A program made the position numbers and the translations under genes. A DNA stretch of 53,872 nt, filler included, from Jimgerdemannia flammicorona (Eukaryota): assembly GCA_003990765.1 (NCBI GenBank). It is 2 parts of 2 records of this genome, joined end to end, with 100 filler letters (N's around TTAATTAATTAA, not from the genome) between each part and the next. Parts side by side here need not be neighbours in the genome. Positions count along the whole stretch, not along the records: positions 1 to 26,893 come from RBNJ01000684.1; 1 more part is not named here. One strand, 5' to 3'. The notes beneath the pieces were generated by a model that saw nothing but the letters and a program-made list of their open reading frames with translations, was not told the DNA's origin and did no database searches. Of the stretch, positions 1 to 53,824 are shown piece by piece; position 1 is the first letter of the stretch, and the number at the start of each line of letters is the position of its first letter.

Positions 1-117
1 AAAAAAAAAAAAAAAAAAAAAACTAAGGCTACAGCCCATGAAAATGTTACAGGACAGAATGACAATATATTGCTAAGCGAAAACAGAAAACAGATGAATC
101 ATACTTGGCCCCATTAT

Positions 118-1611
118 TCAACCTCGATAATCTTTTATCCGATACTTGCATCCTTCCCATAAGCCCACGGCGGGGTACACCTTGCTGGGGAGATTACTCC
201 AAGCTGTTCCGTATTTGAATCCATTGATCGAAAGGGAACAGGTGTGATCATTTAGGTTTAAATGTAAGGTTATGACATCGCCATTTTTAATACTTTTGCC
301 GTATATTTCAACTCTTCTTCCTTCAATAATAAGTGGACTATTGCTGCTGGATTGGAAAGTCCATGCATATGGCCACTTTTCCATGTAACTATCAAAATGT
401 GTGAAGTCCTCTCCAACGAGCCCAATCTCGCAAGTCCCGCCCCTACTAGCAGTAGATTCAACAACAATGTCCCATTGACATAGATTGTTGTGAATATTAG
501 TCCCGGGAACGGAAAGCCGTACAGTCTTTGGCGAATTCCCCGATGGAAGCTCCACGACCTGGCCATCTTCCGAAATGACCACTTGAGAACCGATTTTCGA
601 TCGATCCCACTGGAGACCGACATTGTGATGCGATTTTTCGCGACTTGCGGACGGATGCCCCGTGGAGCATATGGTGTTCTTGCAGGCATGATGGCAAAAC
701 GCCATGTAATGTGGGGAGGTCTCTGCAAACGTGTCGACTGCCTCCGCAAGGATTTTGAGTCGATGCGGACAGATGAGTGTGAGGTCAAAGTGGCTCATCA
801 TTTTGAGCAGCAAGGCGCACGACGCGTCATTTCCTAGCCGGACCGTGCCGTCGCACCCCGCAACCATATCGTTGATGTCATGGAGAACGGCACGGCGCTC
901 CGAAGCCGACGGCGCGCTCTCGTTACGTGCCCAAACCCAGTCGACGACGGACAACAATAGGTCGTGCTCAGGCGTGGAGAGGGTCGCGGCCTCGATCAGG
1001 AGCAGCTCGAGAGCCTCTTCGGAGAGGTCGGTCATCTCACCGATAGCGAGTTTGTGAGCGCGATAGGGGTTCAGGAGCACGTCATAGAGGTCCTTGTTGG
1101 CTTCGTTCCAGGGGATAGCGGCGACAGTTTCGTTGAGAAGCGATGAGGCGACACCAAAATCAGCGAGGTCGTACGCGCGCTGCAGCACCATTTCCATGAG
1201 CTTGGGGAGGAGGAGAAATCTTGCTGCGTGGTATATTCCTACTGCGATGGAAATGTTGATGGTATTGTCGATGGTTTCAGTGTGAATGAAACCAAGGACG
1301 ATCCTAAGTACCGCGGACGTGATATCGTTGAGGACGACGCGTTGGGAGGAACCCTCTCGCATGTTTCCGTACAGCATCGCCTTGAAAACTGGACATCTTT
1401 TTACAGATTATATGAAATTAGGTGTGTGGAAAGTATCATAAAAATGATTGACACAACTAAAGAATCAAAATCGGACAAACCTTGAAGCCAGTACGGCACG
1501 GCATGCGCCCAGTTCGACACCATCGGCGCAGACGACGGCCACATCGTGATAGGTCGGATCTTTCCAGATGGAGGCGATATCGTCCTTGAGGCTAAGACCG
1601 CTGTCGACCAT
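118..1611 (-). CDS. BTB/POZ + C-terminal SPRY/B30.2-like domain protein, ~470 aa, 2 exons (1611-1481, 1396-118)
   Basis: Exon 1 reads MVDSGLSLKDDIASIWKDPTYHDVAVVCADGVELGACRAVLASR (BTB N-terminal pattern). An 84-nt GT..AG intron (1480-1397) joins it in frame to CPVFKAMLYGNMRE...VLRIVLGFIHT. The C-terminus has SPRY-like motifs (WDIVVE, EIGLV, GDVITLHLNL, LSINGFKYGTAWSNLPSKVYPAVGL). Confidence 0.85.
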
Positions 1612-2439
1612 GTTTATAAAAGCGAGAGAAAGGAGTCAAGGTGTGAATTCGGGCCGTGGAACAAATCCTTTCTGTTTTGATCTGAATCGTGGCGCAGCGA
1701 CATCTGACCTCAAAACATTCAATGCATTTCGGACGTATATACAAATGTCGAGGTACCTGCATCGTCAATCCACCATATGGAAATGAAAGTGCATTGTGAA
1801 GTATCCAACACAACGCATTGCACCGCTATGTGGTCAGCACTTCAGGCTGATGTACATTGTTCACATGAGCAGTTAAAAATACACGTTCGTTCATTCTCTC
1901 CTTTCCATTAAGAGTTCGTTCTTTGACCCTGATACTAAAGATCAGTCGCATGAATATATATATTGATCAAAGTTGCTCTCTAGTGCCGCCAATAGAATCA
2001 ACAAATACAAAGGACGTGTAAGGAACATGCCGACGATGCGAAGTAGAATGCAAATATTTTACGAAAAATATTTGCAAATAGACCATGGTTCCAAGCTCCT
2101 TATCTGCAGATTATATGCAAAACAGAATTTCGGCCATTTGGGAATGCCAGTAGTCCACCTTCTGGGCTCATGGATGGGTCTTTTAAACTGCATAGGATAT
2201 GCGGTTGGAGGAGTTTGACATTCATGGTTCTGGATGGAATATATGGCGTGAAATTACACAGAGCTCGGTATTAATTGGATTTCTGAAATGGGAAACATTC
2301 AATCGCAATTTTTCATAGAACCTACAGCTACAACACATCGTGAAAGTTTAAGAAGATACAACACAGGCCTTGATACAGAATGACGATAGTATTCACATTT
2401 CTAAGCTAAAAGTATATAAAACGTCCATGACCCCATCAT

Positions 2440-3675
2440 TCAGCCTCGATAATCGTATATCTGATACTTGCATCCTCCGAAAGCTCATAGGGTATACCTT
2501 GCTAAGGAGATTGCTCCATACCGCCCCATATTGAATTCGTTGATCCAAGGTCATAGGCATGGTCATTTGGGTTTAAATGCAAGGTCGTAACATCACCATT
2601 TTTAATACGTACATTCGCCGTAAGACCTGGAGCCATTTACTTCAGCCAAGTGTACACGGTTTGTTGTCGCAGGATTGGAACCTATGCATATGACCGAAAT
2701 GTCATAGAACTATTAAAATGTGTGAATTGCTCTCCTGCCCAATCTCACAGAAGGCGGTGATGCCAACGGATTCAACTACAATGTCCCATTCGCCATTCGT
2801 CTTGGGGACGGAAAGCCGCGCTGTTTTCAGCGAAGATCCTGATGGAACCTCCACAACCCGACCATCTTCCGAAATGACCACTTGATAACCGATTTTCGAT
2901 CGATCCCACTGGATATCGACTTTCTGCGACATTGGACGGATGCCTCCTGCGGCATATAATGTTCTTGCTTGGGTGATGGTAATACGCTATGTGGAGTGGA
3001 GAGGTTTCCGCTAACGTGTCCACTACTTCCGCAAGGATCCTGAGTCGATGCGTGCAGGTGAGCGTGAGGTCAAAGTGGCTCATTATTTAGAGCAGAAAGG
3101 CGCTCAACATGCCATATTATGCCGTTGCTCCCGTAATCATATCGCTGATTCCGTGGAGAACGGCATGGCGCTCCGAAGCCGATGGCGCGTCATCGTTGCC
3201 TGCCCAGGCCCAGTCGACGACACGTTGCCTCAGCAAGGAGCAGCTCGAGGGCCTCTTCGTCGGGATCGGTCAGCTCGCAAATGGTGAGCTTGTGAGCGCG
3301 GAAGAGGTTGAGAAGCGCGTCGTAGAGGTCTTGGCCGGCTTCGCTCCAGGGGATGGCGGCGACGGCTTCATTTAGAAGCGATGAGACGACACCAAAATAA
3401 ACAAGGTCGTGCGTGTGCTCCAGTACTATTTTTATGAGCTTGGGAAGGAGGAGAAGGCTTGTTGTGCGGTATATTCCTACCGCGATGGAAATGTCAACAG
3501 TGCTGTCGATGGTTTCGGTGTGAATGAAACTGAAGACGATGTTGAGCACCGTGGAGGTGATATTGTTGAGAACGACGCGCTGAGAGGAACCCTCCCGCAT
3601 GTTTCCTTACAGCATTGCTTTAAAAACTAGGCATCATTTAAGAGACCATATGTGTGGAAAGTGTACGGCACGGCA
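2440..3675 (-). pseudogene. Decayed tandem paralog of the BTB-SPRY gene
   Basis: ORF pieces 3190-3600, 2772-3083 and 2702-2932 match the upstream gene (MREGSSQRVVLN, MSHFDLTL, QWDRSKIG) in shifted frames. The splice-donor region is deleted and the 5' end is truncated near 3675. Confidence 0.85.
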
Positions 3676-5844
3676 TTTATAGATATAGAGGGAAGCAGTC
3701 ACAAGATTCATTCATCTGCCTGTTTTACTGGAAACCATTCACCCGCTTTGCTGAGAATTGTCCATTGGCCCGTTTCGCCGGGAATAATCGTCTGTCAACC
3801 CGCTTTCCTGGGAATCATCCACCCATCCGCCTGTTTTGCTGAATCGCCCGCTTGCTGGAATGCCGAATCGTAGTCCGTCCACCCCAGTGACATCACCTTT
3901 GCTGACAAATTGCAATGGTCAATTTCCTATAGATGAGTGACGTAAACACTGATGACATAACAAATTACTCGTATATATTGTAATGGTGACCCCAGAATGA
4001 TGACATCAGCACAGGAGACAGTCTTTCCTTACAAGCCACCAGATCGGAGCACAAGAAGATCATATGGTATGTGAGATGAGCAATGATGACCAACTGTGAG
4101 TCATTGTGACCACAGTACAAGCATCCTGAGGAATATAAAAGAAGGATCAAGGAACCACAGTAACAGCAACCAACAAGACCCACCAATCTCAAAAATAGCT
4201 CAAAGACTCACTATAAATGAAATGCCTACTGTCCACCAAACCTCAAGATCAAGAAACCACCAAGGCATCTCAGTCAAAGAAAGGATGTTCTAAGATATCA
4301 GAAGAGCCATGAGGACCTGCTCAAGAAGGACTCCTAGTATCAACCTGAGTACTGGTGACTCTTATCATTATATCCTCTACTGTGTAAAATGGAAACAAGG
4401 ATCACTATTGCTACTGAATACATCCAAATGTGGCAAGAGTACAAAATAGAAAACCTCCTCTGCTGGGAGTTCCCACAGGCCAGCACTCGAGAGCTACAAG
4501 ATACCACTCCCATGGATATATGTACATGAAACAAGGATAGCTAAGAAGATCCATCAGATCTTTAGGCATGCACCATAGTTGATCTCCAACTTGGAGTATG
4601 TTAGAGTCTCAGATTTCAGTGACCTGTCATCCTGCCATATCAATGCACTAGAAGCCAGAGTGGCTATAGAAGCCCAGTCCACTATCACCCTCAATAGTGA
4701 TGAAGTAGAAGACTTCTGGCATCCCATCCTCCAGGACAACCTAGACCAATTCCTGCAAGGATTGATCTCAGTATTCTAAGGCCCAAGTAGTGCTCTGAAC
4801 GGATGAAGTTGATCCAGATGAGATTCAATTCAGATTCGTCATGTGATAGATTCGAATCAACTCAGATTGGTCTCATGATCTGATCTGGATTGATCTGGAT
4901 TGATCCAGATTGATTGATCCATCCGGATTGATCTGGATTGGTCCATCCAGATTGGTCCATTCGGATTGGTCCATCTGGATTGATCCATCTGGATTGAAAT
5001 CATTAGTGACATCACCCTTTCTTTTGTTTATTTTGCTCTTGTTTTTTTTTTCCTGCTGCACTTTGGTGACATCACCCTTTTCTTTTGCTCCCTCTCTTCT
5101 TTTGTTCTTTTCTTTGTTCTTTTTCTTTGTTCTTTTTCTTTGTTCTTTCCTGCCACATCATGAGCAAACAAAACAGCAGCCCTTAATTTGTACATTGGTC
5201 TAGTCTACTCATTTTTCACCCTGCAATAATTGTCAAAAGAGGGAGTATTCGAGGTGGAAATGCACTCTCTGCTGACAATGTTAGATTCTTTCTCATATGG
5301 ACAGCATACAAGCTGCTCATCGAGAGCCAAAGGGGCAGTGGTGATGGTGATGGTGATGGCGGGAATGAGGGAGAATTCTGGCAACAACTCACGGTGGCCC
5401 TTCAGACCTCGGAATTCACAGACCTTACAGCTATGTACGCAGCAGCCTTTTTGGAGCAGCCGATAGTAGATGTAGGTTGCTCACTTGGCCGCCACTTATT
5501 TACTTATATTTATTTAAACTTTCCCAGCATGACCCAATTCACCTCGTGCTTTTCTTAGGGTCCACAGCTCTATGGTGAGATCTGCCGACTTTATTCGCAA
5601 CATCTGATCAAGATGCAGAAAGGCTGGCGGATGTTGCAGGGCATGCCTTTGGTGGCTGAGCTATTAAGTCAATGCATCACGTGGTGGAGGTCTCAAAGGG
5701 AACAGAAGCAAGCCTTTATGAGCAATCTTGTACAACTTATACAACTCGTCGGCATGTAGCTCACTCACTCACTCACTTATGCTCTTTTTCTGAAATACCC
5801 ATCTCCATGTTTTATTTAATTTCATTTTTATATGGTCTCTCTCT

Positions 5845-6040
5845 AAAAAACACCCACACCCACATGCAACCCACCTGCACACAACCTGTCTGCATACAAC
5901 ACGCCTGCATACAACCTGCCTGCATGCAACCTGCCCACAACCTGCCCGCACACAACCTGCCCGCAACCCGCCCACATGCAACCTGCCCGCATGCAACCCA
6001 CCTGCACACAACCCATCTGCATGCAACCCATCTGCATACT
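5845..6040. repeat. Minisatellite of ~(CATGCAACC(C/T)GCC) units, probably intronic in the cargo gene
   Basis: Visible 14-19-nt imperfect tandem units, immediately followed by CAG acceptor candidates at 6046-6048 and 6054-6056. Confidence 0.75.
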
Positions 6041-6048
6041 TATCTCAG

Positions 6049-7287
6049 TCCCTCAGATCAGGGCTCAGTTCCATTGGAAAGGAGAGTTCAAAGTTACCCA
6101 AGTTCAACCATGTCCGGCATCTGATCAAATAGAGAAATTTGAGGGCAAGATGTTCAGCATGAGCAGTACCAGCATCATCATCAAGGCTTGGGGGTCTACA
6201 TTCGAATCAGAGCCAATCATACTCAACCAAGGGGTCCATTGGCCAGCAGGAGTAACCAACGATGAAGAGAACCATATCTTTATTAATAAACATAGAGAGG
6301 TGGTTGTGATGGTGATAAGGAACCTCTATGGCAATGAGCTTCGCTGCCACATCAATGAGATTTGCGAGGATTGCATCAAATACTGGGTTGCAGGAAAGAG
6401 GGGGCAAAAAAAGCAAGGAGAGGGGGTTTGGATGGGAATTGGGTATACTGCAATACTGGCAAAGGGTGGGTTCTGGAGTTCTGAAATCCCCCGCACTCAT
6501 CTCCCTTTTTTTTTAACCCCTCCCCAGATAAATCACACTCTTCACTGATATACTCTTTTTGACACAATTCCAGGAATGCACAAGATTCTGTACCCCTACC
6601 AGAACTTTAGAAGTACTATCAAAGAGTAAACTGCACATGAGCATGACACAGCCTGTGCGGCAATAGCAGCTATGATCTGGGGTTCTTTGAGCAGATTGGT
6701 AGAGCATACGGCAGGCCAGCTTAGTGGTGATCTTGGTGCAGCTGTATGTACATTCTTGGCACAATTTAGCATGCTGTATGAGGTGAGGAGCTCTGCTTTT
6801 TCGGGGTGTATAGCCTGGGGGGTTTCTGCCCCCCCACATACAAAAAGGACTGACCAGTTGCCATCTGTTTTGGCAGGTTTCCAAGCCAGGGCTCCTGGGG
6901 CTGGACCAAGGGCAGACATCCACCAGCACAGCCTGGCAGTATGAGGTCCTGGGCCAAGGGTTCACCCAACCGTACGCTTGTATCACATCAGGGTATATTG
7001 GGTGCAACCTTTCTCTGCCCACACACACAGACAACAATATCACCCTGGTAATGTTTTATGTCCCGGAAAGGAAGGGCCCAACCTGGGAGGATAGCGGCAG
7101 AGTCTGGTATGACCTCACCTATAGTTTCGGGGTCCCGTTTGCAGTCAACACAGCCATTCTATTCCAACCACATGACCACCATGGCACTGTCGCCTTTGAG
7201 GAGAGCTCGGACACAACAGTTGTTGCACTCATAATGGATGATAGGCTCATCAAGGCCTGGGACCAGCAGGTGGAGCAGTTTTTGTAA
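6049..7287 (+). pseudogene. TET/JBP-like 2OG-Fe(II) dioxygenase cargo gene (exons ~6049-6465, 6574-6782, 6877-7287; one premature TAA)
   Basis: Two GT-AG introns (6466-6573, 6783-6876) with CTGAY branch-like motifs join three frames into one protein. It contains CITSGYIGCNLSLPTHTD (HxD at 7024-7032) and NTAILFQPHDHHGT. One stop at 6627-6629. Further upstream exons (~5230-5755) are possible but unresolved. Confidence 0.6.
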
Positions 7288-7594
7288 GGGTTAGGCAATC
7301 TTTCACAAGGGTTAGGCAATCTTTCGTGAGGGTTAGGCAGCCATTTTGTGTGGATTGAGCAGTCTTATATAGGGGGGGTTGGGCCAGGCACCTCTTATAT
7401 AGCACTAGCTTAGCCATTATGCAGAGCCCTACCAGCTCCTCAGCTCTGCTCTATAGTGCTGCTGGTGCAGTACTGCGGCATAGGATCAGGGTGTCCATGG
7501 GACCTGAACTGGTGACTTCGACTACTGGAAACACCCTCTGACCACCAGAAGCACCCTCTGACTGCCAGAAGCACCCTCCGCCCCAGACTCCTTG

Positions 7595-8070
7595 GTGGCT
7601 TGGGGCTGCCCCTATGCTGCTGGCAGAGGGCTGCAAATTTTGCGCACTCCCTCCACCTACCTTGCCCATCCTGGACACTTGTGGCTTGGGGCTGCCTCTT
7701 GCTGCTAGCAGAGGGCTGCAAATTTTGTATGCTCCCTCCGCCAACCCTGTGCCCACCAACCTGCCAACCGACCCCACCCACTGACCTGGACACTGACAGC
7801 TTGGGGCTGTCCCTTGCTGCTGGTGGAGGGCCGCAAATTTTGCATGCTCCCTCCGCCTACCCCCCCGACCTGGACACTTGCAGCTTAGGGCTGCCTCTTG
7901 CTGCTGGCAGAGGGCCGCAAATTTTGCACACTCCCTCCACTGACCCACTGACCTGTCCACCGACCCACCCACTGACCTGCCCACCAACCTGGGTACTGGC
8001 AGCTTGGGGCTGCCTCTTGCTGCTGGCTGAGGGTTGCAAATATTGTATGCTCCCTCTGCCACCACCGCCA
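7595..8070. repeat. Tandem repeat, ~5 units of ~85-120 bp, inside hAT-1
   Basis: Core GCTTGGGGCTGCCTCTTGCTGCTGGCAGAGGGCTGCAAATTTTG recurs at ~7598, 7684, 7799, 7883 and 8002. Confidence 0.85.
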
Positions 8071-8211
8071 ACCCCACCCCACTTGGGCCACAAATACCAG
8101 GCCAAGTCCTCAGGTTTTTTTTTTCCTTTTTTATTATTTTGAAAGGTATTAATTTGAAAGGTATTAAATATTCCACAAGGCCAACCAACTTATCCATGGA
8201 CCTGCTGAATT

Positions 8212-10762
8212 TTAGCAGCCCAAGCCCCACCAAGACTTCAGACACATATATCCCAGATTGTCTCAGCATTCAGTGTACACCTCTTTGAGGCAACGAGGTC
8301 CACTCCACCTGAGAACACCCACTCAACGGGAGCGCTGGAGGCAGGAATTGCCAGATAGTCCCAAGCCATACTACACAGGCTGGAGAAGTCCATTTGATGC
8401 AGCTGCATGCCCCAGTGGGTAGAGTGGTGGTTAGATTGGTGGGTTAAATTGGCCCAATGCTCGCCTGACAATGCCCACCTGACAACCCACCTTCTACCAG
8501 TTGAGCACCTCTGCACCCTCCAGCAGGACCATGCAGTCACTGGTGAGGTAAATTGTAAAGTTCATCTATTGATGGCAGCTCTTCCACTGACAGCTCCCTC
8601 TTCCTCTTTCTGCTGAAGTAAATGTGGAACAGGAGGGATCCCTTGGCATATTTGTCTGGACTTTGGCCAGAACCTTGCGGTGGTGCATAGTTTTTTTAGT
8701 ATACTTCGATTATGGCCTGCTTGGTTCTCTCAATGAAGTGCTGCTCCCAGCCCTGAACTTTATGGTATTGTAGCTTTAAGCATGGATCCAGCACTGTTCG
8801 AAGAGAAGGAGAGTGAGTTTTGCAGGATTTCTTCTGTTTTGGAAGAGGCAACGGCCACATGCCAACATTGACATACCTGTACTGATTGAGTATATGGCAG
8901 TATCTATTTGGGAGTAGTACTTTCTGAGCTTGCTTAGAGCAATCTCCACAGCATCTCTCTGATCTGGACTTAACCATAAATCACTACAACCCTCCAGCCT
9001 GTCCTCGAGCTTGTCCTCTAGCCAGTCAATCAGAAGGTTGTATACTGGTATCACAGAGCTTATTGTTGGGGTCATTTGTTTGACTATATCCTTCATACAA
9101 TCATTGAAATACTGGCAGTTATATGTGGTGAGGTGTTGCATTGTGTGGAGGCAGACAAAATGAGTGTGGAGCCAGAGCAACCACCACTTACTTCCAAAAC
9201 TCTGACAACATTCCTAAGTATGTCCCACTCACTTTCACCTAGAGCCTTGGCCCATATTTCCTTGTCAGCAGCCATCATTGAATCTATTGGCTTTTTTTTT
9301 TTAAATAAATCTTCCATTATCTGAAACAGTTGCTTCAGCCGACTGAAGAAAAAAAGAATGCATACTACAGCAAACTCCAGTGCATGCTGGATCATTGCAA
9401 ATGTTGAGTTCCAATGCATACAGACATCCAATATAAGCTCTTTCGGGGCTAAACTGATTGCTCTACACTGCACAGTGAATTTATCTCGTCATTGTGAGAC
9501 AATCAGACTGACACAACCAGTTTGCGCAGCTTGGAAATTATACTCAGGGCCCCTCCTCTCTCAGATGTTTTGTCTATGTATGTAAGATAGTCCTGATCAG
9601 TACATGGGCCTGGCATCGCACACAGTAGCTTTCTACACTGAAGGCCATGTTTTCCTGTTTGAGGCTGGCCGCTAAAACTTGGAAAAATGTTGAGTTGTTT
9701 GTGGCATTGTTCATCATAATGGCCAAAATCTATACTTGAAATATTCAGTTAGCAAATTATGTGAAAATAAATAACCAACAAAATCTGTTTTGTTTAAGGA
9801 CCTCTCTCAAAATGCCGACCTGATGGCAAGTCCCCCTTTTTTTACCTTAGTTGTGATCCCAAGCTCCCGGATATAACTAATAAAAGCATCTGCGATGTTG
9901 TCTCCAGAATGAGGGCCAGCAAGTTTGATGAAGTCAAGGGTGAGAGATTTAAGCTGCCAATCAAGGTCAATCCAATGACCGGTAATGTCCAGAAATGAAA
10001 TTGCATTGGGGGATGTCCATGTGTCGATTGTAAACAAAATTTTGCCTGCCAAATTCTGCTTATTGAATGTAAGGTTAAATTGGTGAGCTCTTTTATATAA
10101 TTCAGCTTGCAAAGGTCACAGTGCTGCCCTTATTTTACCTGAAGTATCTGGCAGAGATTGTTGTGCTCCTTCCTATAGGCCTCCAGGACATCTTTGCGAA
10201 TAGTATCAGCACTTGGCAAATATAAATCATGCTTGAGGAGACCAAAGATGCTATGCAATTGATCACTCTTGATGGTTGTGAATGGCTGGTCTGTACACAC
10301 AATCCAGTGAATGAGCTGATTTCAAAATTCTGCCGAAGAGTATGGCTAAATATTTTTGATTAAACAGTATTATTGGTACAGAAATGGTTGGGCAATCGGA
10401 GAAACATACCCACCACAGCTTGGATGTCGATTTTATTTGTCTCTGTATTCTTTTTGATTTTGTCAGAGTGCATGTCTTTTATGTATCAATTCATGTTCGA
10501 GGTCATACCACCAAGCATTTTGAACTTCTGGCTGGTGCAGTTTATGGGAGTGGATGAAACAATATCATATGTGTGTCAAATAAGTCAATAGGTGCATCTT
10601 AATTTTTAACCTGCAATAATTACAAACAACATCATCTCCTATCTTAGCACAATGTTGCCAGATTTCAGAGTGAGGATTGCATGGAAGGTGTGGAACTATC
10701 AGGGATGTTTGACTTGAAGCATCATTGGTACTGTGAACTGTTGAAGACTGATCTGTCGACAT
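8212..10762 (-). pseudogene. hAT transposase with BED zinc finger, multi-intron, disrupted
   Basis: SEIWQH...VVCNYC (BED), FTIDTWTSPN...ITGHWID...LDFIKLAGPHSGDNIA, ELILDVCMHWNSTFAMI, VLDPCLKL, DYLAIPASSAPVEWVFS (hAT dimerisation domain). Confidence 0.9.
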
Positions 10763-11770
10763 ATGTGTTTACATGTTTGCATGTGCATGTGTATGCATGT
10801 GTGTATATTGTGTGTGTATTGTATTGTGGACACATCCGGCATATGAGTCATGTGGAGGATTTGGATTGGAGGATTCAGTTGAAGGATTCAGATGAGGATT
10901 CGGATTGAAGGTTTCAAATTGGAGGATTTGAATTGGAGGATTTGAATTGGAGAATTCGGATTGAGTGATTCAGATTGAGTGATTTGGATTGAGTGATTTG
11001 GATTGAGTGATTCAGATTGAGTAATTCAGATTGGGGTGGTTCAGATGGGTGATTTGGATGGGGTGATTCAGATGGGGCAATTCAGATTAATCCAAGTTGA
11101 TTTGGATGGCTTCAGATTTGAGATTCGGATCGAACCATCATGTGACAAATCAAATCCAGATTTGATTCGAATTGACTCGTTCAGAGCACTAGGCCCAAGC
11201 ATCCAGGTTAGACCTCCCCAAGACCCCACATTTGTTCTCTATTTTGTAGAAGAGAACCTCATAGACTGGAGAGCTCCAGATCTCCTTGTCCTCACTGCCA
11301 CCACTGAATATAATAACATCATCAGCAATGATGTCATCCTGTGTGACATACATGAGATGTATGATGAGCATGGAATATGCAAAGCATGTGAAGTATGCAA
11401 AATGCATGACCTACATGATGATGATGACAAATTTGTAGATCTCATCTCCTTCGAAGACATCCTGATCTCTATGATAAAGCCTCTATGGTCCTAAACATTC
11501 TGCTCTAAGTCCCTTGGTTACACTGGATAATACCAGCACTGGTATTCTGAGGTAATACTGAATAATGCCAGCACTGGCATTCTGAGATAACACTGAATAA
11601 TATCAGCACTGATATTTTGATGTGACACCAAATTATACCAGCATTCTGAACCTATACAACCATCAGTGCCAACCCTGGAACTTAGCAGTTTTTCCTGTTC
11701 TGGCATTTTATTTTAGTTATTGGAATTTATATTTAGCTTTATATCTTAGCAACCATTGAATTATATTTTG

Positions 11771-11808
11771 TATAAATACTCCTCTTATTTTCTCTGAAAT
11801 AAAGTCAG
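11771..11808 (+). promoter_or_regulatory. LTR TATA box and poly(A) signal (5' LTR)
   Basis: TATAAATA at 11771-11778 and AATAAA at 11798-11803, followed by GTCAGT. Same layout in the 3' LTR (24968, 24995) and the solo LTR (42090, 42116). Confidence 0.6.
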
Positions 11809-12009
11809 TTAAGTTCACTTACACACAATCTCTTGCAAGCAATCTAAAAGATAACAAGATAGTTAAAGATAAGAAGTTTGAGGACTATAAGACCTTAGGA
11901 AGGCACTCCAATAAGAACTTGCTTATAACAAACTTGAGTTAGTCTAAGAGATATACCTTGAAGAGAATCTGACATATTTGAAAGACTCAGTGACCACTAT
12001 GTGACAACT

Positions 12010-12027
12010 TGGTGCCCATTGGCTGGT
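12010..12027 (+). other. Primer-binding site (tRNA identity not determined)
   Basis: TGGTGCCCATTGGCTGGT begins 3 nt after the 5' LTR; TGG is complementary to the tRNA CCA end. Confidence 0.7.
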
Positions 12028-12062
12028 GATTCAAGACGAATCTCTCACTTTCAAGCTGAAAA

Positions 12063-13982
12063 ATGAACAACCCCCACAACAACTACCCTGACTACAAGAG
12101 TCACCCCTGCAAGTATTCAAAACATGATAGAAATGCATCCCCCCACATTCTATGGATATACTACTGAAGAGTCAATCCTGATCTTCATTGAAGACTTTGA
12201 ACAGTTTGCTGCCATATGAGCCCTTAGTGTGGATGCACAATTAGCCCTTCTACCAGTCAGTCTCAGAGGACCTGCTAGGGACAAGTTCAATGCAGCCACT
12301 ATTGCTAATAATAGTGCAGCCAAACTTGCCAACATGAAGGCCTTCCTCAGAACAACATATTATACTGAAGAGATCAAGTAAGCTCTCAAGGATCAACTCA
12401 ATACTATCTGCCAGAGACTTAGTAAAGATCCCAACTCATTCTATACCTGAATATGCCACCAGATTTTCTTGACTGGCTATGATGACCACCTTAAGGAACA
12501 AATAGCAGAGTCAACCTTCCTCAAAGAAGTTCACCCTGAAATTGCCCTAGCAATTGGTCTACCCCAGCTGCACTGACTCTTAATCAGAAAGTGGTCTTTA
12601 TATAGAGATATTGGACTGCCAGATACCCTGCCAAACACTTAATAGAGAAAATAACTGGTATCAAGATAGAGCCATCGAAGCCAACTAGTATCATACCTGT
12701 CACAGTTGTAAACAGACAACCAACCCCACCTATCACTAAGACAGCCAAAGCTGACCCAGTGGAAGAACTTGCCAAGCAGTTTACTGAGATGACTGTACAC
12801 CTTGGTAATGTTGTTAGAGAAGTCTGAAGTGCTAACAGGAGATTTGCAGCTGCTATAGAAGAATGCAATATTACATACTTCAGATGTGGAGAAGAAGGCC
12901 ACTATACAAAGAATTACATGATTTAAACAAGACATAAAGCCCAACCAAGCAATGCTAGCAGAACTAGAGAACAAACCAATACAGTAGTCATCAAGGAGAT
13001 TGGTGACACTGATGATGAAGAATACTATGAGGAGCTCAAATTCTACCCTGCTACTGAAGGTACCAGAACTCAGTCCAAGCTCTATGACAAGAAGAGCAAC
13101 AGCAAGCCAGTTGGAAGACCAAAGAAGACCCCAGCTGTTACTATTCAAAGCAAGACCCAACCCAAGGAGATTGATCAAGATATGGAGTTAGATGAAGCTG
13201 CCTGCCAAATTATTAAAGGCACTACTCCAGTCTCAGGAGAAAGCAAGAGCAAGAAGAAACAGAAGCTGTGCAAGACAAAGATCCACCAGTATGATATCTA
13301 TAAGGACCTCAAAGAACAGAAGGTCAATGCTACTTTTGAATAACTAGCTGAAGTCCCTGCCTTCAGACAACAGTTGAGAGTAGGACTTGCAACTACTGCC
13401 AAGAATCAAGAGTACAAGATTGTAGAAGCTCACAATACACAGGAAGAATCTGAAAACTCAGGTGAAGAATTCAAAGATCAGCACAAGACATCAGCCTATA
13501 CTCTATGTCAGATCAAAGACTGTATCTTTGATGTCATCATTGATACTGATGCTGGAGGATACCTCATGAGCAAGAAGGCAATTGACCACCTAGGTTGGAA
13601 TATTGAAGAGTCCACCAAGATGGTCTATGTTATAGCAGATGGTATATAAGCTATCCCCCTTGGCAAAATCCAAAAAGTCTCCATCAAGATAGGAGGAGCT
13701 ACCATCCCAGTAGATGTGATTGTTACAAGTGCCACCAACTATAACATCCTCATTGGCAACCAATGGCTTCACAAGGCCAAGGCCATTATTGATCTCAATA
13801 CTCAGAAGATGCAGATCAACTATAGAGGAAGAAAGGTACAAGTCTCTATCAATGTCCACAAAGGAGTTCTATCAGACATAGAGGAAGGAGATGAAGAGAA
13901 CACAGAGGTCTTCATGCACTCAGTAAACAAGAACAAGAACAAGACACCCAAGCTCACAGATGAGCAGTGGTACAACAAGATC
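12063..13982 (+). pseudogene. Gypsy gag and aspartic protease (degenerate)
   Basis: ATG at 12063. Decayed zinc knuckle (Y)FRCGEEGHYTKN(Y) at ~12876-12918. Protease motif VIIDTDAG at ~13533-13556 and ILIGNQWL. Confidence 0.8.
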
Positions 13983-19932: not shown

Positions 19933-20171
19933 GGTACAACAAGATCGTTAATGGCTATGCCCCTCAAGAAAGATGCCCCCATGGTACTAGGATGTACTGC
20001 TCTGAACACCTGAATGACTGCTGGTCCTATATCAGTGAAGTTAGGAAAATCTGCCAATAGAAACATGAGCAAGAAGCCACTGAAGCAAAAAGGAAAGCCA
20101 AAGAAGATGACCAGCCCCCAGAGCTTCAAGCTGACAGTGATGATGAGGAGGAACAAGAACCAGATATCACC

Positions 20172-23601: not shown

Positions 23602-25214
23602 TGTAATGGTGACTTCAGAATGATGACATCAGCACAGGAGACAGTCTTTCCTTACAAGCTACCAGATCAGAGCACAAGAAGATCATATGGCATACAAGAT
23701 GAGCAATAATGACCAACTATGAGTCATTGTGACCACAGTACAAGTATCCTGAGGAATATAAAAGAAGGATTAAGGAACCACAGTAACAGCAACCAACAAG
23801 ACCCACCAATCCCAAAAATAGCTCAAAGACTCACTACAAACGAAATGCCTGCTGCCTGCCAAACCTCAAGATCAAGGAACCACTAAGGCATCTCAGTTAA
23901 AGAAAGGATATTCCAAGACATCAGAAGAGCCATGAGGATCTGCTCAAAAAGGACTCCTAGTATCAACCTGGGTACTGGTGACCCTTATCATTATATTCTC
24001 TACCACCATGAAATGGAAACAAGGATCACTATTGCTACCAAATGCCTCCAAATATGGCAGGAGTATGAAATAGAAAACCTCCTCTGCCAGAAGTTTCCAC
24101 AGGCCAGCCCTCAAGAACTACAAGATATTACTCCCATGGATATATATGAGGCAAGGACAGCTAAGAAGATCCATCAGATCTTCAGACATGTACTATGGTC
24201 GATCCCTAACTTGGAGTATGTTAGAGTCTCAGACTTCAGAGACCTATTATCTCACCATATCAATACACTAGAAGCCAGAGTGGCTACAGAAGCCCAGTCC
24301 ACTATCACTCTCAATAGTGATGAAGTAGAAGACTTCTGGCATTCTTTCCTCCAGGACAATCTAGACCAATTTCTACAAGGATTGATCTCAGTATTCTAAG
24401 GCCCAAGTATCTAGATTAGACCTCCCCAAGACCCCACATTTGTCCTCTATTTTGTGGAAGAGAACCTCATAGACTGGAGAGCTCCAGACCTCCTTGTTCC
24501 TGCCCCCACCACCACTGAACATGATGTCATCAGTGATAATGTCATCCCGCATGACATATGTGAGATGCATGATGAAGCATATGAAGTATGCGAAATATAC
24601 AACCTACATGACAATGATGACAACAAATTCATGGACCTTATCTCCTTTGAAGACATTCTGACCTCTGATGATGAAGCCCCTATGGTCTTGAACATTCTGC
24701 TCTAAGTCTCTTGGTTACACTGAAGAATACCATTACTGGTATTCTGAGGTGACACAGAATTGTTCCAGTACTGGTATTTTGGTGTAATACTGAATAATAC
24801 CAGCACCAGTATTCTGATGTGACACTGAATTATACCAGCATCCTGAACCTATACAACCATCAGTACCGACCCTGAAACTTAACAGTTTTTTCTGTCCTGG
24901 CATTTTATTTTAGTTATTGAAATTTATATTTAGCTTTATAACTTAGCAACCATTGAATTATATTTTGTATAAATACCCCTCTTATTTCCTCTAAAATAAA
25001 GTCAGTCCATTCAGTCTACTCAGTGCAATACACACTTCCTTGCAAGTAATCTAAGAGATAACAAGACAGTTTAAAGATAAGAAGTTTGAAGACTATAAGA
25101 CCTTGGGAAGGCACTCTAATAAGAACTTGCTTATAACAAACTTGAGTTAGTCTAAGAGATATACCTTGAAGAGAATCTGGTGTATTTGAAGGACTCAGTG
25201 ACCACTATGTAACA
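23602..25214 (+). repeat. 3' LTR (1613 bp)
   Basis: TG...CA termini; collinear with the split 5' LTR. Confidence 0.95.
23845..24705 (+). pseudogene. LTR (U3)-encoded ORF of unknown function, ~286 codons
   Basis: One frame from ATG 23845 to TAA 24705 with three internal stops. Two of them (23884, 24412) are CAA/CAG in the 5' LTR copy. Homologous to the ORF in the solo LTR at 40955-41838. Confidence 0.7.
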
Positions 25215-25631
25215 ATATTTTTATACTAATTTTAGTAAAACTACTAGAGGTTAAAGGATAGATACCAGGTCTTTGAAGTATTAGTATAATTTTTAATATT
25301 CTTAAAAATATAGAACTTTGAGAAATTACTAGTTTAGATAGAGTTGAATGAGTAGAACTTTAATAGAAAATTAAACAATGTAGTTCTTAAGTTTTTGTAT
25401 AAGTTTATCAAAGTTCTAGGCAAAGTTATCAGTATTGTCTACTTGGTCAGACTGGACCAGATCTCTTAGTAGTATATCTGCTACTTTATTTGATATATTC
25501 ATAAGATATAAACTTAGTAATCAGACTAGTAGTAGAGGGTTCTATATATGTAGTACTGGCTTCTGAGACTTTCTGATAATGGGTAATCAGTAAGTTTAGA
25601 GGTAATAATATCTCTCAATGGTTTGGTAGGC

Positions 25632-52033: not shown

Positions 52034-53824
52034 TAGTGCTCTTAACAAATCGAATTGAGGCCAATTCAATTCAAATCAATTTGAATTGAGATTCAATTCA
52101 ATTCAATTCGAATTGAATTGAAGATCCAATTTGATTTGAGTTTCAATTTAATTTGATTTGATGAGATTTCTCTATCAGCTGAATGGGGGATTATAGTCAT
52201 ATAAGCTACTGCCCAATTGTAAATATTACAATACTAGTATATAAATAAAATAATGTAACAGTCAGCTCAATAATATCAATTTGATCCTCAAAACTCAATA
52301 TGGTAATTGGAAACTCAATATAGTAATTGGAAACTCATATGTGTTGAAACTCACAATATACAACTACCTTCCTTAATGTATTCAAGCATATCAGATGAGC
52401 CTTTTATACCACTATTAGTTACAGAGGATACTATAATAACAGCCATAATGTCAATAGATACAACTTCAACAAGTGCAGTAACAATCTCAATATAATCTGC
52501 AAAAGGAAAAAGAAGAGCATGCTATATACACTCTGATATTTGGAAGGAGTTTATGAAGGTATACAAGGATGATGGAGAAGTTATTCTGAAGTATAACTAC
52601 TGTAAAGTAAAATATAAGTCTAAAGATAGCTCAATAACAAATTTGTAGACACATTTCAATAAACACCATAAGAGTCTTCAGGTTGGAATGATAGATTCAT
52701 ACTTATCATAAGTATGGTTTACCTTTTGACCATGTTGTAATTGGGGGAGCTGGTGGCTATACTGATGAGTATCCTAAGAACTCTCTTTTTTTAAATAGTC
52801 AAAATTCTCTATACAGTTATTTTAAGACAAGCTTATTTGCTGGATTATTGATGACAATTAGCCTTTTACGGTTGTTGAAAGTTCAGAGCTGAAAGATATT
52901 TTTTGCCTTCTGAAACCAGACATTACTATTCCTTCTGCTGGAACTATTCAAAATGAAATCAGACTAGCTTTTCAATGAAGTCATGATGCCATCAAAATTA
53001 AGCTATAGGTAAGATTTAATATTTTGACTTATTCAAATCTTAATTTGAATTAAGCTCATTCCAATTAATTTATTTGGAAATAAAATGTACTTGGTCAAAT
53101 ATCTTTCACTATTGACATATAGATATCACCTAATATGCATGCATTTCTTAGAATTAATGTACATTGGATCAGTTAGAATTAGCAACTCAACTGTATGTTG
53201 ATTGATTTTGTCAAGCTGTCAGGACCTCATTCAAGTGAAAATCTTGCTGATGCCTTTATGAACTGTATCAGAGACTTTGAGATATTGACAAAGGTATATA
53301 ATTTTATATTTTGGAAACAGGTGGTTTTGTTTTATATTTTTACATGAAAAAGATTGTGATTTTTTTTTTTTAAAAAAAATATATATATATTTCGAAATAC
53401 AGTTATCTTACATTTCAAATTATTGATTTTCACTCTAGATATTGGCTATAACAACAGACAATACATCCAACAACAATGTGTTTTTTCAAATAATTCAGGA
53501 GAAATTCAATTACACTTATCTTAACAATCCACCAATATAACACATATGCTACCTGACACATATCATTAACCTGGCTGTTCAGGCATTTTTAATCTATCTG
53601 AAGGCTGAGAGTGAAGATGATGATACAACTGAGAATGGAGAAATATCAAGACTCTGAATGATTATTACCAAGATCTGATCTTCACTATAGCATCGAGAGC
53701 AATTTGCTAAGCAATATAGAATTTTTAGAATCAGCAATCCAAAATAACTCATATTGGATGTTAGAACTTGATGGAATTCAACATATTCGATGATTGAATG
53801 AGCCTAAGAATTATCAGAAGTAAG

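What the first reader, a model, noticed from the sequence alone, without database searches (positions are those of the whole stretch)
6049..7287. hAT transposon carrying a spliced TET/JBP-like dioxygenase gene
Seen: inside a hAT with perfect TIRs and 8-bp TSD, three plus-strand frames join through two canonical introns (6466-6573, 6783-6876) into one ~345-aa product, convergent with the transposase. The ORF track misses it because it is split. It reads ...FINKHREVVVMVIRN...KRGQKKQGEGVWMGIGY...YACITSGYIGCNLSLPTHTDNNITLVMFY...YSFGVPFAVNTAILFQPHDHHGTV... Known: TET/JBP 2OG-Fe(II) dioxygenases show N-x(5)-HxD and a later LLF-x(4-5)-HG motif. In fungi they are described as cargo of Kyakuja-Dileera-Zisupton and Plavaka elements; I do not know of them in hATs. 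Inference: this may be an undescribed hAT lineage carrying a DNA base-modifying enzyme, possibly countering host methylation. Caveats: this copy has one TAA (6627), and the 2OG-binding Arg after the second His is not evident.
Basis: partly seen in the sequence, partly recalled or inferred. Interest (0 to 1): 0.9.

Follow-up and report, generated by a model that had tools for sequence, protein, structure and literature searches.

The report
Dead hAT transposon carrying TET-like gene
A broken copy of a cut-and-paste (hAT) transposon from an unidentified soil eukaryote carries a spliced gene for a very divergent TET/JBP-like DNA-base oxidase, a kind of transposon cargo that was first catalogued in fungi in 2025 but not in this transposon lineage or enzyme subtype.

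Summary
Window 4788-11191 is a 6,404-bp hAT element. It has perfect 14-bp terminal repeats, an 8-bp target duplication and an uninterrupted empty site elsewhere in the window. Convergent to a fragmented transposase lies a gene of at least four exons.

Two of its three introns sit at the same alignment column and phase as in an intact relative that is only 26% identical. Two stored proteins read straight across those junctions. The window copy has one in-frame TAA (6627-6629).

Pfam, NCBIfam, PHROGs and PDB sequence searches find nothing, and both AlphaFold runs failed (pLDDT 36-37), so the fold is untested. Support for TET/JBP kinship is moderate:
- A profile-profile comparison with phage Tet_JBP proteins gives P about 2e-4, with HxD, R-x-G, GG and HG in register. 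0 of 200 shuffles reach that score, and AlkB and TauD score at noise.
- ESM Atlas neighbours are Tet_JBP/Tet-like clusters.
- By eye, the protein is collinear with Kojima's (2025) "PE-type" transposon TET-like proteins.

TET-carrying hATs are already in print (hAT7, PU-type, Puccinia). This one differs in having an 8-bp duplication, other termini, a PE-like enzyme with HxD, and no arginine after the distal histidine. I rate it a new variant of a known kind, and this copy is a relic.

The parts
4780..4787 (.). left copy of the 8-bp target-site duplication GGCCCAAG
   Evidence: present once in the empty paralog
4788..4801 (+). left terminal inverted repeat (14 bp, perfect)
   Evidence: imperfect extension to 32 nt at 75%
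4881..4997 (.). left subterminal array of 14-bp repeats (about 8 copies)
5187..5471 (+). possible further upstream exon (open frame ending at donor GTAGGT); start codon not located; uncertain
   Evidence: L001 seems to have a matching exon end, judged by eye and not tested
5559..5729 (+). exon 1 of the cargo gene; holds an ATG at 5643 that lines up with the first residue of P0006
   Evidence: the acceptor position matches L001's exon start, the donor GTACAA is weak
6057..6465 (+). exon 2 (N-terminal strands and the G-x-G-Y-T motif)
6574..6782 (+). exon 3 (helical insert); in-frame TAA at 6627-6629
6877..7287 (+). exon 4 (catalytic core): Cys where relatives have Arg at 7003-7005, HxD at 7024-7032, invariant Arg in ERKG at 7066-7077, distal His-Gly within 7177-7188, stop at 7285-7287
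7595..7938 (.). internal tandem repeats (about 85-bp units) between the two genes
   Evidence: many length variants among metagenome contigs
8238..10768 (-). hAT transposase remnants in at least 7 open pieces over three frames: hAT dimerisation domain at 8238-8561, weak BED finger at 10565-10768
   Evidence: most related contigs carry an extra T after 9756
10853..11088 (.). right subterminal array of 14-bp repeats
11178..11191 (-). right terminal inverted repeat
11192..11199 (.). right copy of the target-site duplication
24370..24450 (+). empty site: paralogous copy of the host repeat without the hAT insertion

Best explanation
Window 4788-11191 is a decayed, non-autonomous copy of a canonical (8-bp duplication) hAT DNA transposon. 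It inserted into another repeat in a transposon-rich, CpG-methylating genome of an unidentified eukaryote, probably a fungus. Besides its transposase it carries, tail to tail, a gene of at least four exons for a roughly 400-residue Fe(II)-dependent dioxygenase of the TET/JBP superfamily. The enzyme belongs to a very divergent clade that looks closest to the "PE-type" transposon-borne TET-like proteins of Pezizomycetes and Agaricales.

Inferred mechanism in intact family members:
- The His-x-Asp...His triad binds iron.
- The enzyme oxidises a methylated pyrimidine in DNA, most likely 5-methylcytosine.
- This removes or recodes the host's silencing mark on the element, so it can still be transcribed and moved by the transposase, which acts on the terminal and subterminal repeats.

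Shown here: the element's structure and boundaries, the spliced gene, its conservation, and the broken state of this copy. Inferred: the fold, the substrate and the anti-silencing role. In this copy the cargo gene has a premature TAA and Cys in place of a family-conserved Arg, and the transposase is in pieces, so it is a relic.
For: Element. Perfect terminal repeats, the 8-bp duplication with empty sites inside the window and in metagenome contigs, PF05699, and subterminal repeat arrays.

Gene.
- Canonical introns that join in phase.
- L001 has an uninterrupted 396-codon spliced frame with introns 2 and 3 at the same alignment column and phase, at only 26% identity.
- P0006 and P0022 are contiguous across these junctions.
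- 17 invariant columns in 8 sequences include the first His, the His-Gly and an Arg 15 residues after the first His.

TET/JBP kinship.
- hhalign of the family against 7 phage Tet_JBP-type proteins scores 37.6-38.8, P 2.0-2.3e-4, probability 44-47%. HxD aligns on HxD, R-x-G on RRG, GG on GG and HG on HG.
- Reversed controls score 17.0. 0 of 200 column shuffles reach the real score (maximum 30.9).
- 7 of 7 single TET templates score 17.2-34.8, against AlkB 14.6 and TauD 15.5.
- ESM Atlas, P0006: top cluster 0.96 with 209 of 256 shared features, PF20515 on 15% of members.
- ESM Atlas, the window's own exon 4: 26 of 30 named hits fall in the Tet_JBP set, and a PF20515 cluster is named "Tet-like 2OG-Fe(II) oxygenase superfamily".
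- By eye, a series of collinear motifs is shared with PE-type rows of Kojima's Table S1, for example N-T-x-I-x-x-Q-P-x-D-x-H-G-T and R-L-[IV]-K.

Context.
- CpG o/e is 0.06-0.37 in the transposon part against 0.91 in the genic part. This is not RIP-like and not TCG-specific.
- Differences from related contigs are almost all transitions.
- The family is multi-copy in a soil metagenome: 2,488 contigs laid at 80% or more, covering all 30 bins of the element.
Against: - No hit to Pfam Tet_JBP, PF20515 or any 2OG-oxygenase model, even at E up to 10, for the exons or for full-length P0006. Nothing in NCBIfam or PHROGs.
- Nothing in PDB sequences by phmmer or by profile.
- Both AlphaFold models were useless (pLDDT 36.8 and 36.2), so the double-stranded beta-helix is not shown.
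- The hhalign probability is below 50%, with shallow profiles (Neff about 2).
- The reference phage protein, Cooper gp2, itself scores below Pfam's gathering cut-off (26.6 against 34.9 bits).
- The Arg about 10 residues after the distal His, which binds the C5 carboxylate of 2-oxoglutarate in TET2 and NgTET1 (PMC7854593, passages), is absent in all family members.
- The link to the PE type is by eye only.
- Whether other copies of this hAT carry the cargo is not proven, because the contigs are too short to bridge. The relatives L001 and L002 show no hAT within 3.7 kb.
- No RNA evidence.
Confidence: 0.62

Rival explanations
1. The cargo is a TET/JBP-derived dioxygenase with different chemistry. 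Having lost the arginine that holds the C5 carboxylate of 2-oxoglutarate, it may use another co-substrate, as algal CMD1 uses vitamin C. Alternatively it may act on thymine, as the ParB-linked phage enzymes are reported to do, or on 6mA, rather than performing TET-type 5mC oxidation.
For: - No Arg or Lys near +10 after the distal His in any of the family members aligned.
- The CMD1 paper states that lack of a working basic residue for the C5 carboxylate explains why CMD1 cannot use 2-OG (PMC7854593, passages).
- The only profile that matched here is a phage group. Earlier notes of this scan file that group as thymine dioxygenases (not checked by me).
- Kojima leaves other activities open for the PU and PE types.
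Against: - An Arg 7 residues before the first His (G-R-C-A) is kept in P0004, P0006, P0022 and L001. Its position is similar to NgTET1 Arg224.
- Residues that bind 2-OG are subfamily-specific, so a missing Arg does not prove loss of 2-OG use.
- There is no structural model to judge the pocket.
Confidence: 0.2
2. The gene is a passively captured host gene (a transduplicate) that does nothing for the transposon. Its presence in this hAT copy is incidental, or it belongs to a different element nested inside the hAT.
For: - hAT elements do capture host fragments (general knowledge).
- L001 and L002 show the gene without any hAT similarity nearby.
- No contig bridging cargo and transposase was listed.
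Against: - The gene is whole: all exons plus conserved introns.
- It has no terminal repeats or duplication of its own.
- Relatives occur as near-identical multi-copy sequence in different metagenomes, and the similarity extends beyond the gene (L001 and L002 align over 2,716 nt). This is how a transposon behaves, not a single-copy host gene.
- All 30 bins of the element, cargo included, are covered in 3 of 4 runs and 29 of 30 in the fourth.
- Transposon carriage of TET-like genes is the rule in fungi (PMC12730594).
Confidence: 0.1
3. The protein is not a dioxygenase of this superfamily at all, and the HxD...HG spacing and the weak profile match are coincidence.
For: No curated family model matches. 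There is no fold. The hhalign probability is below 50%.
Against: - Negative controls for hhalign.
- Two queries that are only about 30% identical both land among Tet-like clusters in the ESM Atlas.
- The His, Asp and His-Gly positions are the ones conserved across the family.
Confidence: 0.08

Closest known systems
TET-carrying hAT7 transposons of Puccinia (Kojima 2025, Biology 14:1741, PMC12730594)
   Same: A hAT-superfamily DNA transposon that carries a TET/JBP-type dioxygenase gene beside its transposase. The proposed role is escape from methylation-based silencing.
   Different: - hAT7 makes 7-bp duplications and its consensus begins CAACGGTGGG or CAGCGATGGG. This element makes 8-bp duplications and begins TAGTGCTCTGAACG.
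- hAT7 carries the PU-type enzyme, which has G-W-R and R-x-G-x-S-x-Q motifs. Here both arginines are missing.
- In three hAT7 families the gene lies upstream of the transposase in the same orientation. Here the two genes are convergent.
PE-type transposon-borne TET/JBP-like dioxygenases of Pezizomycetes and Agaricales (same paper)
   Same: Judged by eye, there are collinear motif blocks along the whole domain. Both lack the Arg of the R-x-G-x-S motif and keep an Arg shortly after the HxD/E strand. Both are too divergent for ordinary sequence searches (the paper reports HHpred E 1.4 to CMD1).
   Different: - PE has HxE as its hallmark. This family has HxD.
[quoted passage not shown]
- No formal alignment or tree was made here.
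Phage Tet_JBP / 5-methylpyrimidine oxidases next to ParB (Mycobacterium phage Cooper gp2 and relatives)
   Same: This is the only family linked here by a statistical test. The HxD, R-x-G, GG and HG motifs are in register, and the T-S-G-x-I stretch before the HxD is shared.
   Different: The phage proteins keep the Y-R-x-S-x-V-x-Y motif after the distal His, which this family lacks. They are prokaryotic-virus genes without introns. Sequence identity is about 22-25% over 69-118 columns.
CMD1 of Chlamydomonas (vitamin-C-dependent TET homologue; PMC7854593)
   Same: A TET-family enzyme in which no functional arginine holds the C5 carboxylate of 2-oxoglutarate.
   Different: CMD1 still has the aligned Arg residue, though turned away from the site. 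It is a nuclear host gene, not described as transposon cargo.

Membership tests
hAT superfamily of DNA transposons | short terminal inverted repeats | tested here: met
   14-bp perfect repeats starting TAG
hAT superfamily of DNA transposons | 8-bp target-site duplication | tested here: met
   GGCCCAAG on both sides; present once in the empty paralog; contigs skip 6,412 = 6,404 + 8 bases
hAT superfamily of DNA transposons | transposase with the hAT C-terminal dimerisation domain (PF05699) | tested here: met
   E 5.2e-7, 29.8 bits, above the 21.4-bit cut-off
hAT superfamily of DNA transposons | BED zinc finger and DDE/RNase-H-like catalytic core | tested here: inconclusive
   zf-BED E 0.025, below its cut-off; no core-domain hit in the fragments; search for longer homologues found none
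hAT7 (Kojima 2025) | 7-bp target-site duplication | tested here: not met
   8 bp here, 7 bp in the paper
hAT7 (Kojima 2025) | termini like the hAT7 consensus sequences | tested here: not met
   The 14-mer is absent from the supplement (0 occurrences). Listed hAT7 consensuses begin CAACGG or CAGCGA. Consensus cells are cut at 400 characters, so only the starts were seen.
TET/JBP dioxygenases (Pfam PF12851 Tet_JBP; PF20515) | match to the curated family model | tested here: not met
   No Pfam family at E up to 10 for P0006, P0003, P0004 and P0007, or at E up to 1 for the window exons
TET/JBP dioxygenases (Pfam PF12851 Tet_JBP; PF20515) | His-x-Asp ... His iron triad, conserved across relatives | tested here: met
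   H283, H335 and G336 are invariant in 8 sequences. Asp is present in all but the P0007 representative, whose cluster mates have Asp. The spacing of 52 residues is similar to NgTET1 His229...His279, whose His229, Asp231 and His279 numbering I recalled; no call shows it.
TET/JBP dioxygenases (Pfam PF12851 Tet_JBP; PF20515) | profile-level homology to accepted members | tested here: met
   hhalign P 2.0-2.3e-4 with catalytic motifs in register; 0 of 200 shuffles reach it; reversed controls score 17; AlkB and TauD at noise. This is weak: probability 44-47%.
TET/JBP dioxygenases (Pfam PF12851 Tet_JBP; PF20515) | double-stranded beta-helix fold | tested here: inconclusive
   Two AlphaFold2 runs gave pLDDT 36.8 and 36.2. 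No fold search was run on them.
TET/JBP dioxygenases (Pfam PF12851 Tet_JBP; PF20515) | two arginines that hold the 2-oxoglutarate carboxylates (TET2 R1261/R1896; NgTET1 R224/R289) | tested here: not met
   There is no basic residue about 10 after the distal His in any member. A candidate for the first Arg (G-R-C-A, 7 residues before the His) is present in 4 lineages, but is Cys in the window and His in P0003. Definition taken from PMC7854593 passages.
PE-type TET/JBP-like (Kojima 2025) | HxE in place of HxD | tested here: not met
   HTD / HVD in all members; PE hallmark
PE-type TET/JBP-like (Kojima 2025) | sequence kinship with PE-type members | not testable with these tools
   The resemblance was seen by eye in Table S1 rows.

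The most novel reading that the evidence does not exclude
This is the first sighting of an uncatalogued clade of TET/JBP-derived enzymes that is spread by canonical hAT elements in a CpG-methylating soil eukaryote. The clade keeps the iron triad but has lost the arginine that anchors 2-oxoglutarate. Like CMD1, it may therefore use another co-substrate and write a DNA base modification that is not 5hmC. That would make it a transposon-encoded epigenetic 'eraser' or 'rewriter' with new chemistry.
Probability: 0.15. Interest if true: 0.75.

Novelty: new variant of a known kind. Interest (0 to 1): 0.45.

Why it matters
Transposon-borne TET-like enzymes are thought to let DNA transposons undo the host's methylation-based silencing. 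The 2025 catalogue covers three fungal classes and three enzyme types.

This element adds three things:
- a canonical hAT as carrier;
- a subtype that curated models miss entirely and that protein databases barely contain (4 credible clusters among 1.84 billion representatives);
- a host whose transposons bear the scars of heavy CpG methylation.

If intact copies are active, they offer a small (about 400 residues), naturally mobile DNA-demethylating or base-modifying enzyme with an unusual co-substrate pocket. It would also be a test case for the arms race between methylation and transposons outside the lineages already sampled. The copy in the window itself is dead and has no function.

Tried and rejected
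- **Whole genome:** none is held for this window. Copy census, consensus and dN/dS across genomic copies could therefore not be done.
- **Family libraries on exons and relatives:** no credible match. Pfam gave only sub-threshold chance hits such as Bys1 and DUF2688. NCBIfam gave none. PHROGs gave three chance hits at E 0.035-0.46.
- **PDB sequence searches:** the profile search gave only designed repeat proteins at E above 1. phmmer of P0006 gave 0 hits.
- **AlphaFold2:** run twice, on P0006 with 8 rows and on P0022 with 12 rows. pLDDT was 36.8 and 36.2. No fold search was run on such models because matches would be meaningless.
- **Homologue searches:**
  - The exhaustive phmmer search found 5 proteins, one of them an odd repeat protein.
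  - The word-indexed searches added only P0022 and nothing new with the profile.
  - The transposase fragment found nothing.
- **Locus scans:** the metagenome scan gave only 2 loci. The viral contig scan gave none. The genome-contig scan was not possible with this alignment. Searching Pfam models directly on L001 and L002 was not possible.
- **Sequencing runs:** no RNA holder was listed, and only small-share soil-metagenome and 'organism A' contig holders appeared. Splice junctions could therefore not be checked in RNA. Contigs are too short to bridge cargo and transposase, and the state of position 6627 in other copies was not among the rows shown.
- **RIP and Pucciniomycotina-type TCG hypermutation:** both rejected as the mutational signature. 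TpA/ApT is 0.58-0.78, (CA+TG)/(AC+GT) is 1.5-1.7, and all four NCG contexts are depleted.
- **L001 against L002 for selection:** uninformative. There are only 8 exon differences, all nonsynonymous transitions, so this is recent decay of L002.
- **Literature searches with the phrase 'tet jbp'** do not match the printed 'TET/JBP'; one search counts 0 occurrences in Kojima's own paper. Their zero results therefore mean nothing. 'PF20515' found no paper.
- **Earlier findings of this scan for this genome or look-alike sequence:** none.
Full report
**1. The element**

The 14-mer TAGTGCTCTGAACG lies exactly at 4788-4801 on the plus strand and at 11178-11191 on the minus strand. With up to two mismatches, 0.25 matches are expected by chance, and 0 of 100 shuffles gave the four seen. 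GGCCCAAG flanks both ends, at 4780-4787 and 11192-11199.

Two independent kinds of empty site fix the boundaries:
- **Inside the window.** A paralogous copy of the flanking repeat (23602-25215; 86.7% over 1,636 nt) reads straight from the left flank through a single GGCCCAAG into the right flank.
- **In public metagenome contigs.** Contigs join 4778 to 11191, skipping 6,412 bases. This equals the 6,404-bp element plus 8. There is 1 such contig in run X1 and 2 in X4.

On the minus strand, open pieces between 8238 and 10768 carry a hAT dimerisation domain (PF05699, E 5.2e-7, above its cut-off) and a weak BED finger (E 0.025). Arrays of 14-bp subterminal repeats lie inside both ends.

The element is therefore a hAT with the canonical 8-bp duplication. 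The transposase is spread over at least seven open pieces in three frames. Most related contigs carry an extra T after 9756: depth 117 of 131 in X1, 12.7 of 12.7 in X2, and 8.4 of 8.4 in X4. At least one of the breaks is thus a frameshift peculiar to this copy.

**2. The cargo gene**

Both are GT..AG, and they join the frames in phase. The first splits a Gly codon and the second lies between codons. One in-frame TAA lies at 6627-6629.

An exhaustive phmmer search with the last exon, over 1.84 billion representative proteins, found 5 proteins at E up to 0.001:
- P0003 (81% identical), P0004 and P0007 are single-exon reading frames from metagenome contigs.
- P0006 is a 374-residue full-length relative.
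- P0005 is an odd tandem-repeat protein, discussed under things noticed in passing.

A further search added P0022. One metagenome scan gave two loci, L001 and L002.

L001 holds an uninterrupted spliced frame of 396 codons. Its exons are 501-647, 745-1180, 1267-1451 and 1534-1956, and its introns are GTAAGT/GTGAGA...AG. In a four-way alignment, introns 2 and 3 of the window and of L001 fall in the same columns (211 and 281) with the same phase. Intron 1 is within four columns. The two proteins are only 26% identical.

P0006 and P0022 run without interruption across all these junctions. They therefore come from spliced transcripts or from intron-less copies. I could not tell which.

- Exon 1 is 5559-5729. 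Its ATG at 5643 lines up with the first residue of P0006.
- Intron 1 is 5730-6056 and is filled with a microsatellite-like repeat.
- Exon 2 starts at 6057, where L001's exon starts.
- A further upstream exon ending at the donor at 5472 is possible. I could not find the true start codon.

Only one copy of the gene lies in the window.

**3. What the protein is: negative results**

Ordinary searches say nothing:
- No Pfam family at E up to 10 for P0006, or at E up to 1 for the window's exons.
- Nothing in NCBIfam and only chance hits in PHROGs.
- Nothing in PDB sequences.

Both AlphaFold2 attempts failed for lack of alignment depth (pLDDT 36.8 and 36.2).

**4. What the protein is: positive evidence**

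Three lines point to the TET/JBP superfamily.

*(a) Conservation pattern.* Across eight sequences the invariant positions include the first His, the His-Gly pair 52 residues later, and an Arg 15 residues after the first His. The Asp of HxD is present in all but one decayed representative.

*(b) Profile-profile test.*
- I fetched Mycobacterium phage Cooper gp2, the phage TET/JBP protein used in Kojima's Figure 7. It matches PF12851 at E 4e-6, although at 26.6 bits it is below the 34.9-bit gathering score.
- I added six diverse tblastn relatives and aligned them as A5.
- hhalign of my family against this set gives a score of 37.6-38.8, P 2.0-2.3e-4, probability 44-47%.
- The alignment puts T-S-G-x-I...P-x-H-x-D on the same phage motif. 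It puts R-x-G on RRG, GG on GG, and HG on HG.
- Controls: reversing either alignment gives 17.0 (P 0.26). Of 200 column shuffles of the phage alignment, none reaches the real score (maximum 30.9, median 14.5).
- Against single sequences, 7 of 7 phage TET proteins score 17.2-34.8. Six of them align across the HxD-to-HG core. E. coli AlkB scores 14.6 and TauD 15.5, on irrelevant stretches.
- This is a real but modest signal from shallow profiles.

*(c) ESM Atlas (a lead, not a test).*
- For P0006 the nearest cluster scores 0.96 with 209 of 256 shared features. It carries PF20515 on 15% of its 53 members, from Basidiomycota. A Tet_JBP cluster follows at 0.91.
- For the window's own last exon, 26 of 30 named hits belong to the Tet_JBP set (top 0.91).
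- Those hits include clusters named "Tet-like 2OG-Fe(II) oxygenase" and a PF20515 cluster at 0.88.

**5. Relation to what is in print**

Kojima (Biology 2025, PMC12730594) is the key reference. I read the abstract, sections 3.1, 3.2, 3.4 and the first part of section 4. I also read the figure legends, supplement parts 1 and 12, and three text searches of the supplement.

The paper shows that seven lineages of DNA transposons in rust fungi carry a "PU-type" TET/JBP gene. These include 20 hAT families named hAT7.

This element is not hAT7:
- hAT7 makes 7-bp duplications, and its consensus sequences begin CAACGGTGGG or CAGCGATGGG.
- The window's terminal 14-mer does not occur in the supplement. 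Consensus cells there are cut at 400 characters, so only the starts were seen.

Nor is the protein PU-type. PU proteins have G-W-R-K and R-x-G-x-S-x-Q motifs that this family lacks.

By eye the family is collinear with the paper's "PE-type" proteins from Pezizomycetes and Agaricus. The shared blocks, in order, are:
- an N-x-I-x-x-D...E-I-V-x-x-V-x-R-N block;
- G-x-x-x-x-G-Y-[ST]-A;
- a helix I-x-A-x-x-W;
- [RG]-[ML]-D;
- the HxD/E strand;
- an Arg a few residues later;
- G-G-x-F-[FY]...Y-G-[IF];
- N-T-x-I-x-x-Q-P-x-D-x-H-G-T;
- a final R-L-[IV]-K.

The PE type was itself linked to TET only through predicted structures and a weak HHpred hit (E 1.4 to CMD1). Its hallmark is HxE, whereas this family has HxD. 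[quoted passage not shown]

This is the main gap in the argument.

A whole-word search for JBP + hAT + transposons + dioxygenase + fungi finds only this paper. Earlier searches using the phrase 'tet jbp' were ineffective. Iyer et al. 2014, the first description of transposon-linked fungal TET genes, I know only from recall and from its citation in Kojima.

**6. The co-substrate pocket**

According to passages of the CMD1 structure paper (PMC7854593):
- Two strictly conserved arginines hold the carboxylates of 2-oxoglutarate in TET2 (R1261, R1896) and NgTET1 (R224, R289).
- CMD1 cannot use 2-oxoglutarate because no basic residue serves the C5 carboxylate.

In the phage set, the motif Y-R-x-S-x-V-x-Y after the distal His is invariant.

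An Arg seven residues before the first His (G-R-C-A) is kept in P0004, P0006, P0022 and L001. It is Cys (TGC, 7003-7005) in the window and His in P0003. Both are what a CGC codon becomes by CpG deamination on one strand or the other. L002 shows the same Arg-to-Cys change relative to L001.

I therefore read the first arginine as ancestral and the second as truly absent. That leaves open a departure in co-substrate or chemistry (rival 1).

**7. Genomic setting and likely role**

- The first 5 kb of the window holds an intron-less BTB/SPRY reading frame and has CpG o/e 0.91.
- The other ten 5-kb blocks (the last is shorter) are full of retroelement fragments and have CpG o/e 0.06-0.37.
- The hAT itself has CpG o/e 0.26, with an excess of TpG/CpA.
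- The RIP indices are not RIP-like, and all four NCG contexts are depleted.

This is the signature of long-term CpG methylation and deamination aimed at transposons. Consistently, differences between the window copy and related contigs are almost all transitions. In X1, A>G 200, T>C 196, C>T 143 and G>A 132, against at most 10 for any transversion class.

The family is abundant in one soil metagenome. 2,488 contigs were laid at 80% identity or more, of which 361 are at 99% or more. Every 221-bp bin of the element, cargo included, is covered in X1, X2 and X4, and 29 of 30 bins in X3.

Of the six best-supported fixed differences inside exons, four are synonymous (6389, 6575, 6972, 6993). One restores a Pro seen in relatives (6896), and one is Ala/Val (6658). 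This hints at purifying selection, but the numbers are small and 1,138 further rows were not shown.

A transposon-encoded enzyme that oxidises 5mC fits this setting, and it is the role proposed in print for the catalogued families. It is inferred, not shown.

The source organism is unknown. Short GT..AG introns, the Atlas neighbours' taxa and the PE-like resemblance suggest a fungus.

**8. Verdict**

This is a dead copy of a hAT that carries a TET/JBP-like gene. The kind of thing is published. The carrier lineage and the enzyme subtype appear not to be. I rate it a new variant of a known kind, of moderate interest. It has an open and testable question about the missing 2-oxoglutarate arginine.

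Noticed in passing
window 1-5000 versus 5001-53872: There is a sharp contrast in CpG content: o/e 0.91 in the genic first 5 kb against 0.06-0.37 in the transposon-rich remainder, with TpG/CpA excess. All NCG contexts are depleted, most strongly ACG/CGT. This suggests transposon-targeted CpG methylation and deamination in the host, not RIP.
   Followed up: partly
window 118-1407 (-): An intron-less 429-residue open frame with BTB/POZ and SPRY domains. It is the only apparent host gene in the window.
   Followed up: no
window 3601-4787 + 11200-12600, and 23602-25215: The hAT sits inside another repeat family that has a second copy in the window (86.7% identical). That family is deeper than the hAT in the soil metagenome contigs (flank bins 507-607 against 51-302 inside the element). 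Its nature was not determined.
   Followed up: partly
window 19995-20008 and 52034-52047: Two 14-mers differ from the hAT terminal repeat by 2 mismatches each. They may be remnants of related elements or chance matches. blastn found no other piece of the element outside 4788-11191.
   Followed up: partly
L001 versus L002 (metagenome loci): Two about 99% identical copies of a relative of the cargo gene come from different metagenome records. All 8 exon differences are transitions and all are nonsynonymous, with two new stop codons in L002, several at CpG. No hAT similarity lies nearby, and the neighbouring open frames have no Pfam match.
   Followed up: partly
protein P0005 (432 aa, on a 25-kb contig, not in the window): About eight tandem repeats of roughly 55 residues each resemble the first 50-70 residues of the window's last exon (about 27% identity, E 1e-5 per repeat; phmmer E 3e-12 overall). 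It may be a satellite derived from a fragment of such a gene, or chance resemblance of a repeat.
   Followed up: partly
window 7595-7938 and 5863-6039: About 85-bp tandem repeats lie between the two genes, and a 15/26-bp C/A-rich repeat fills intron 1. Metagenome contigs show many length variants there.
   Followed up: no
window 13650-48478: Many retroelement fragments are present: reverse transcriptase, RNase H, an aspartyl protease remnant, and an endonuclease/exonuclease/phosphatase domain of LINE type.
   Followed up: no
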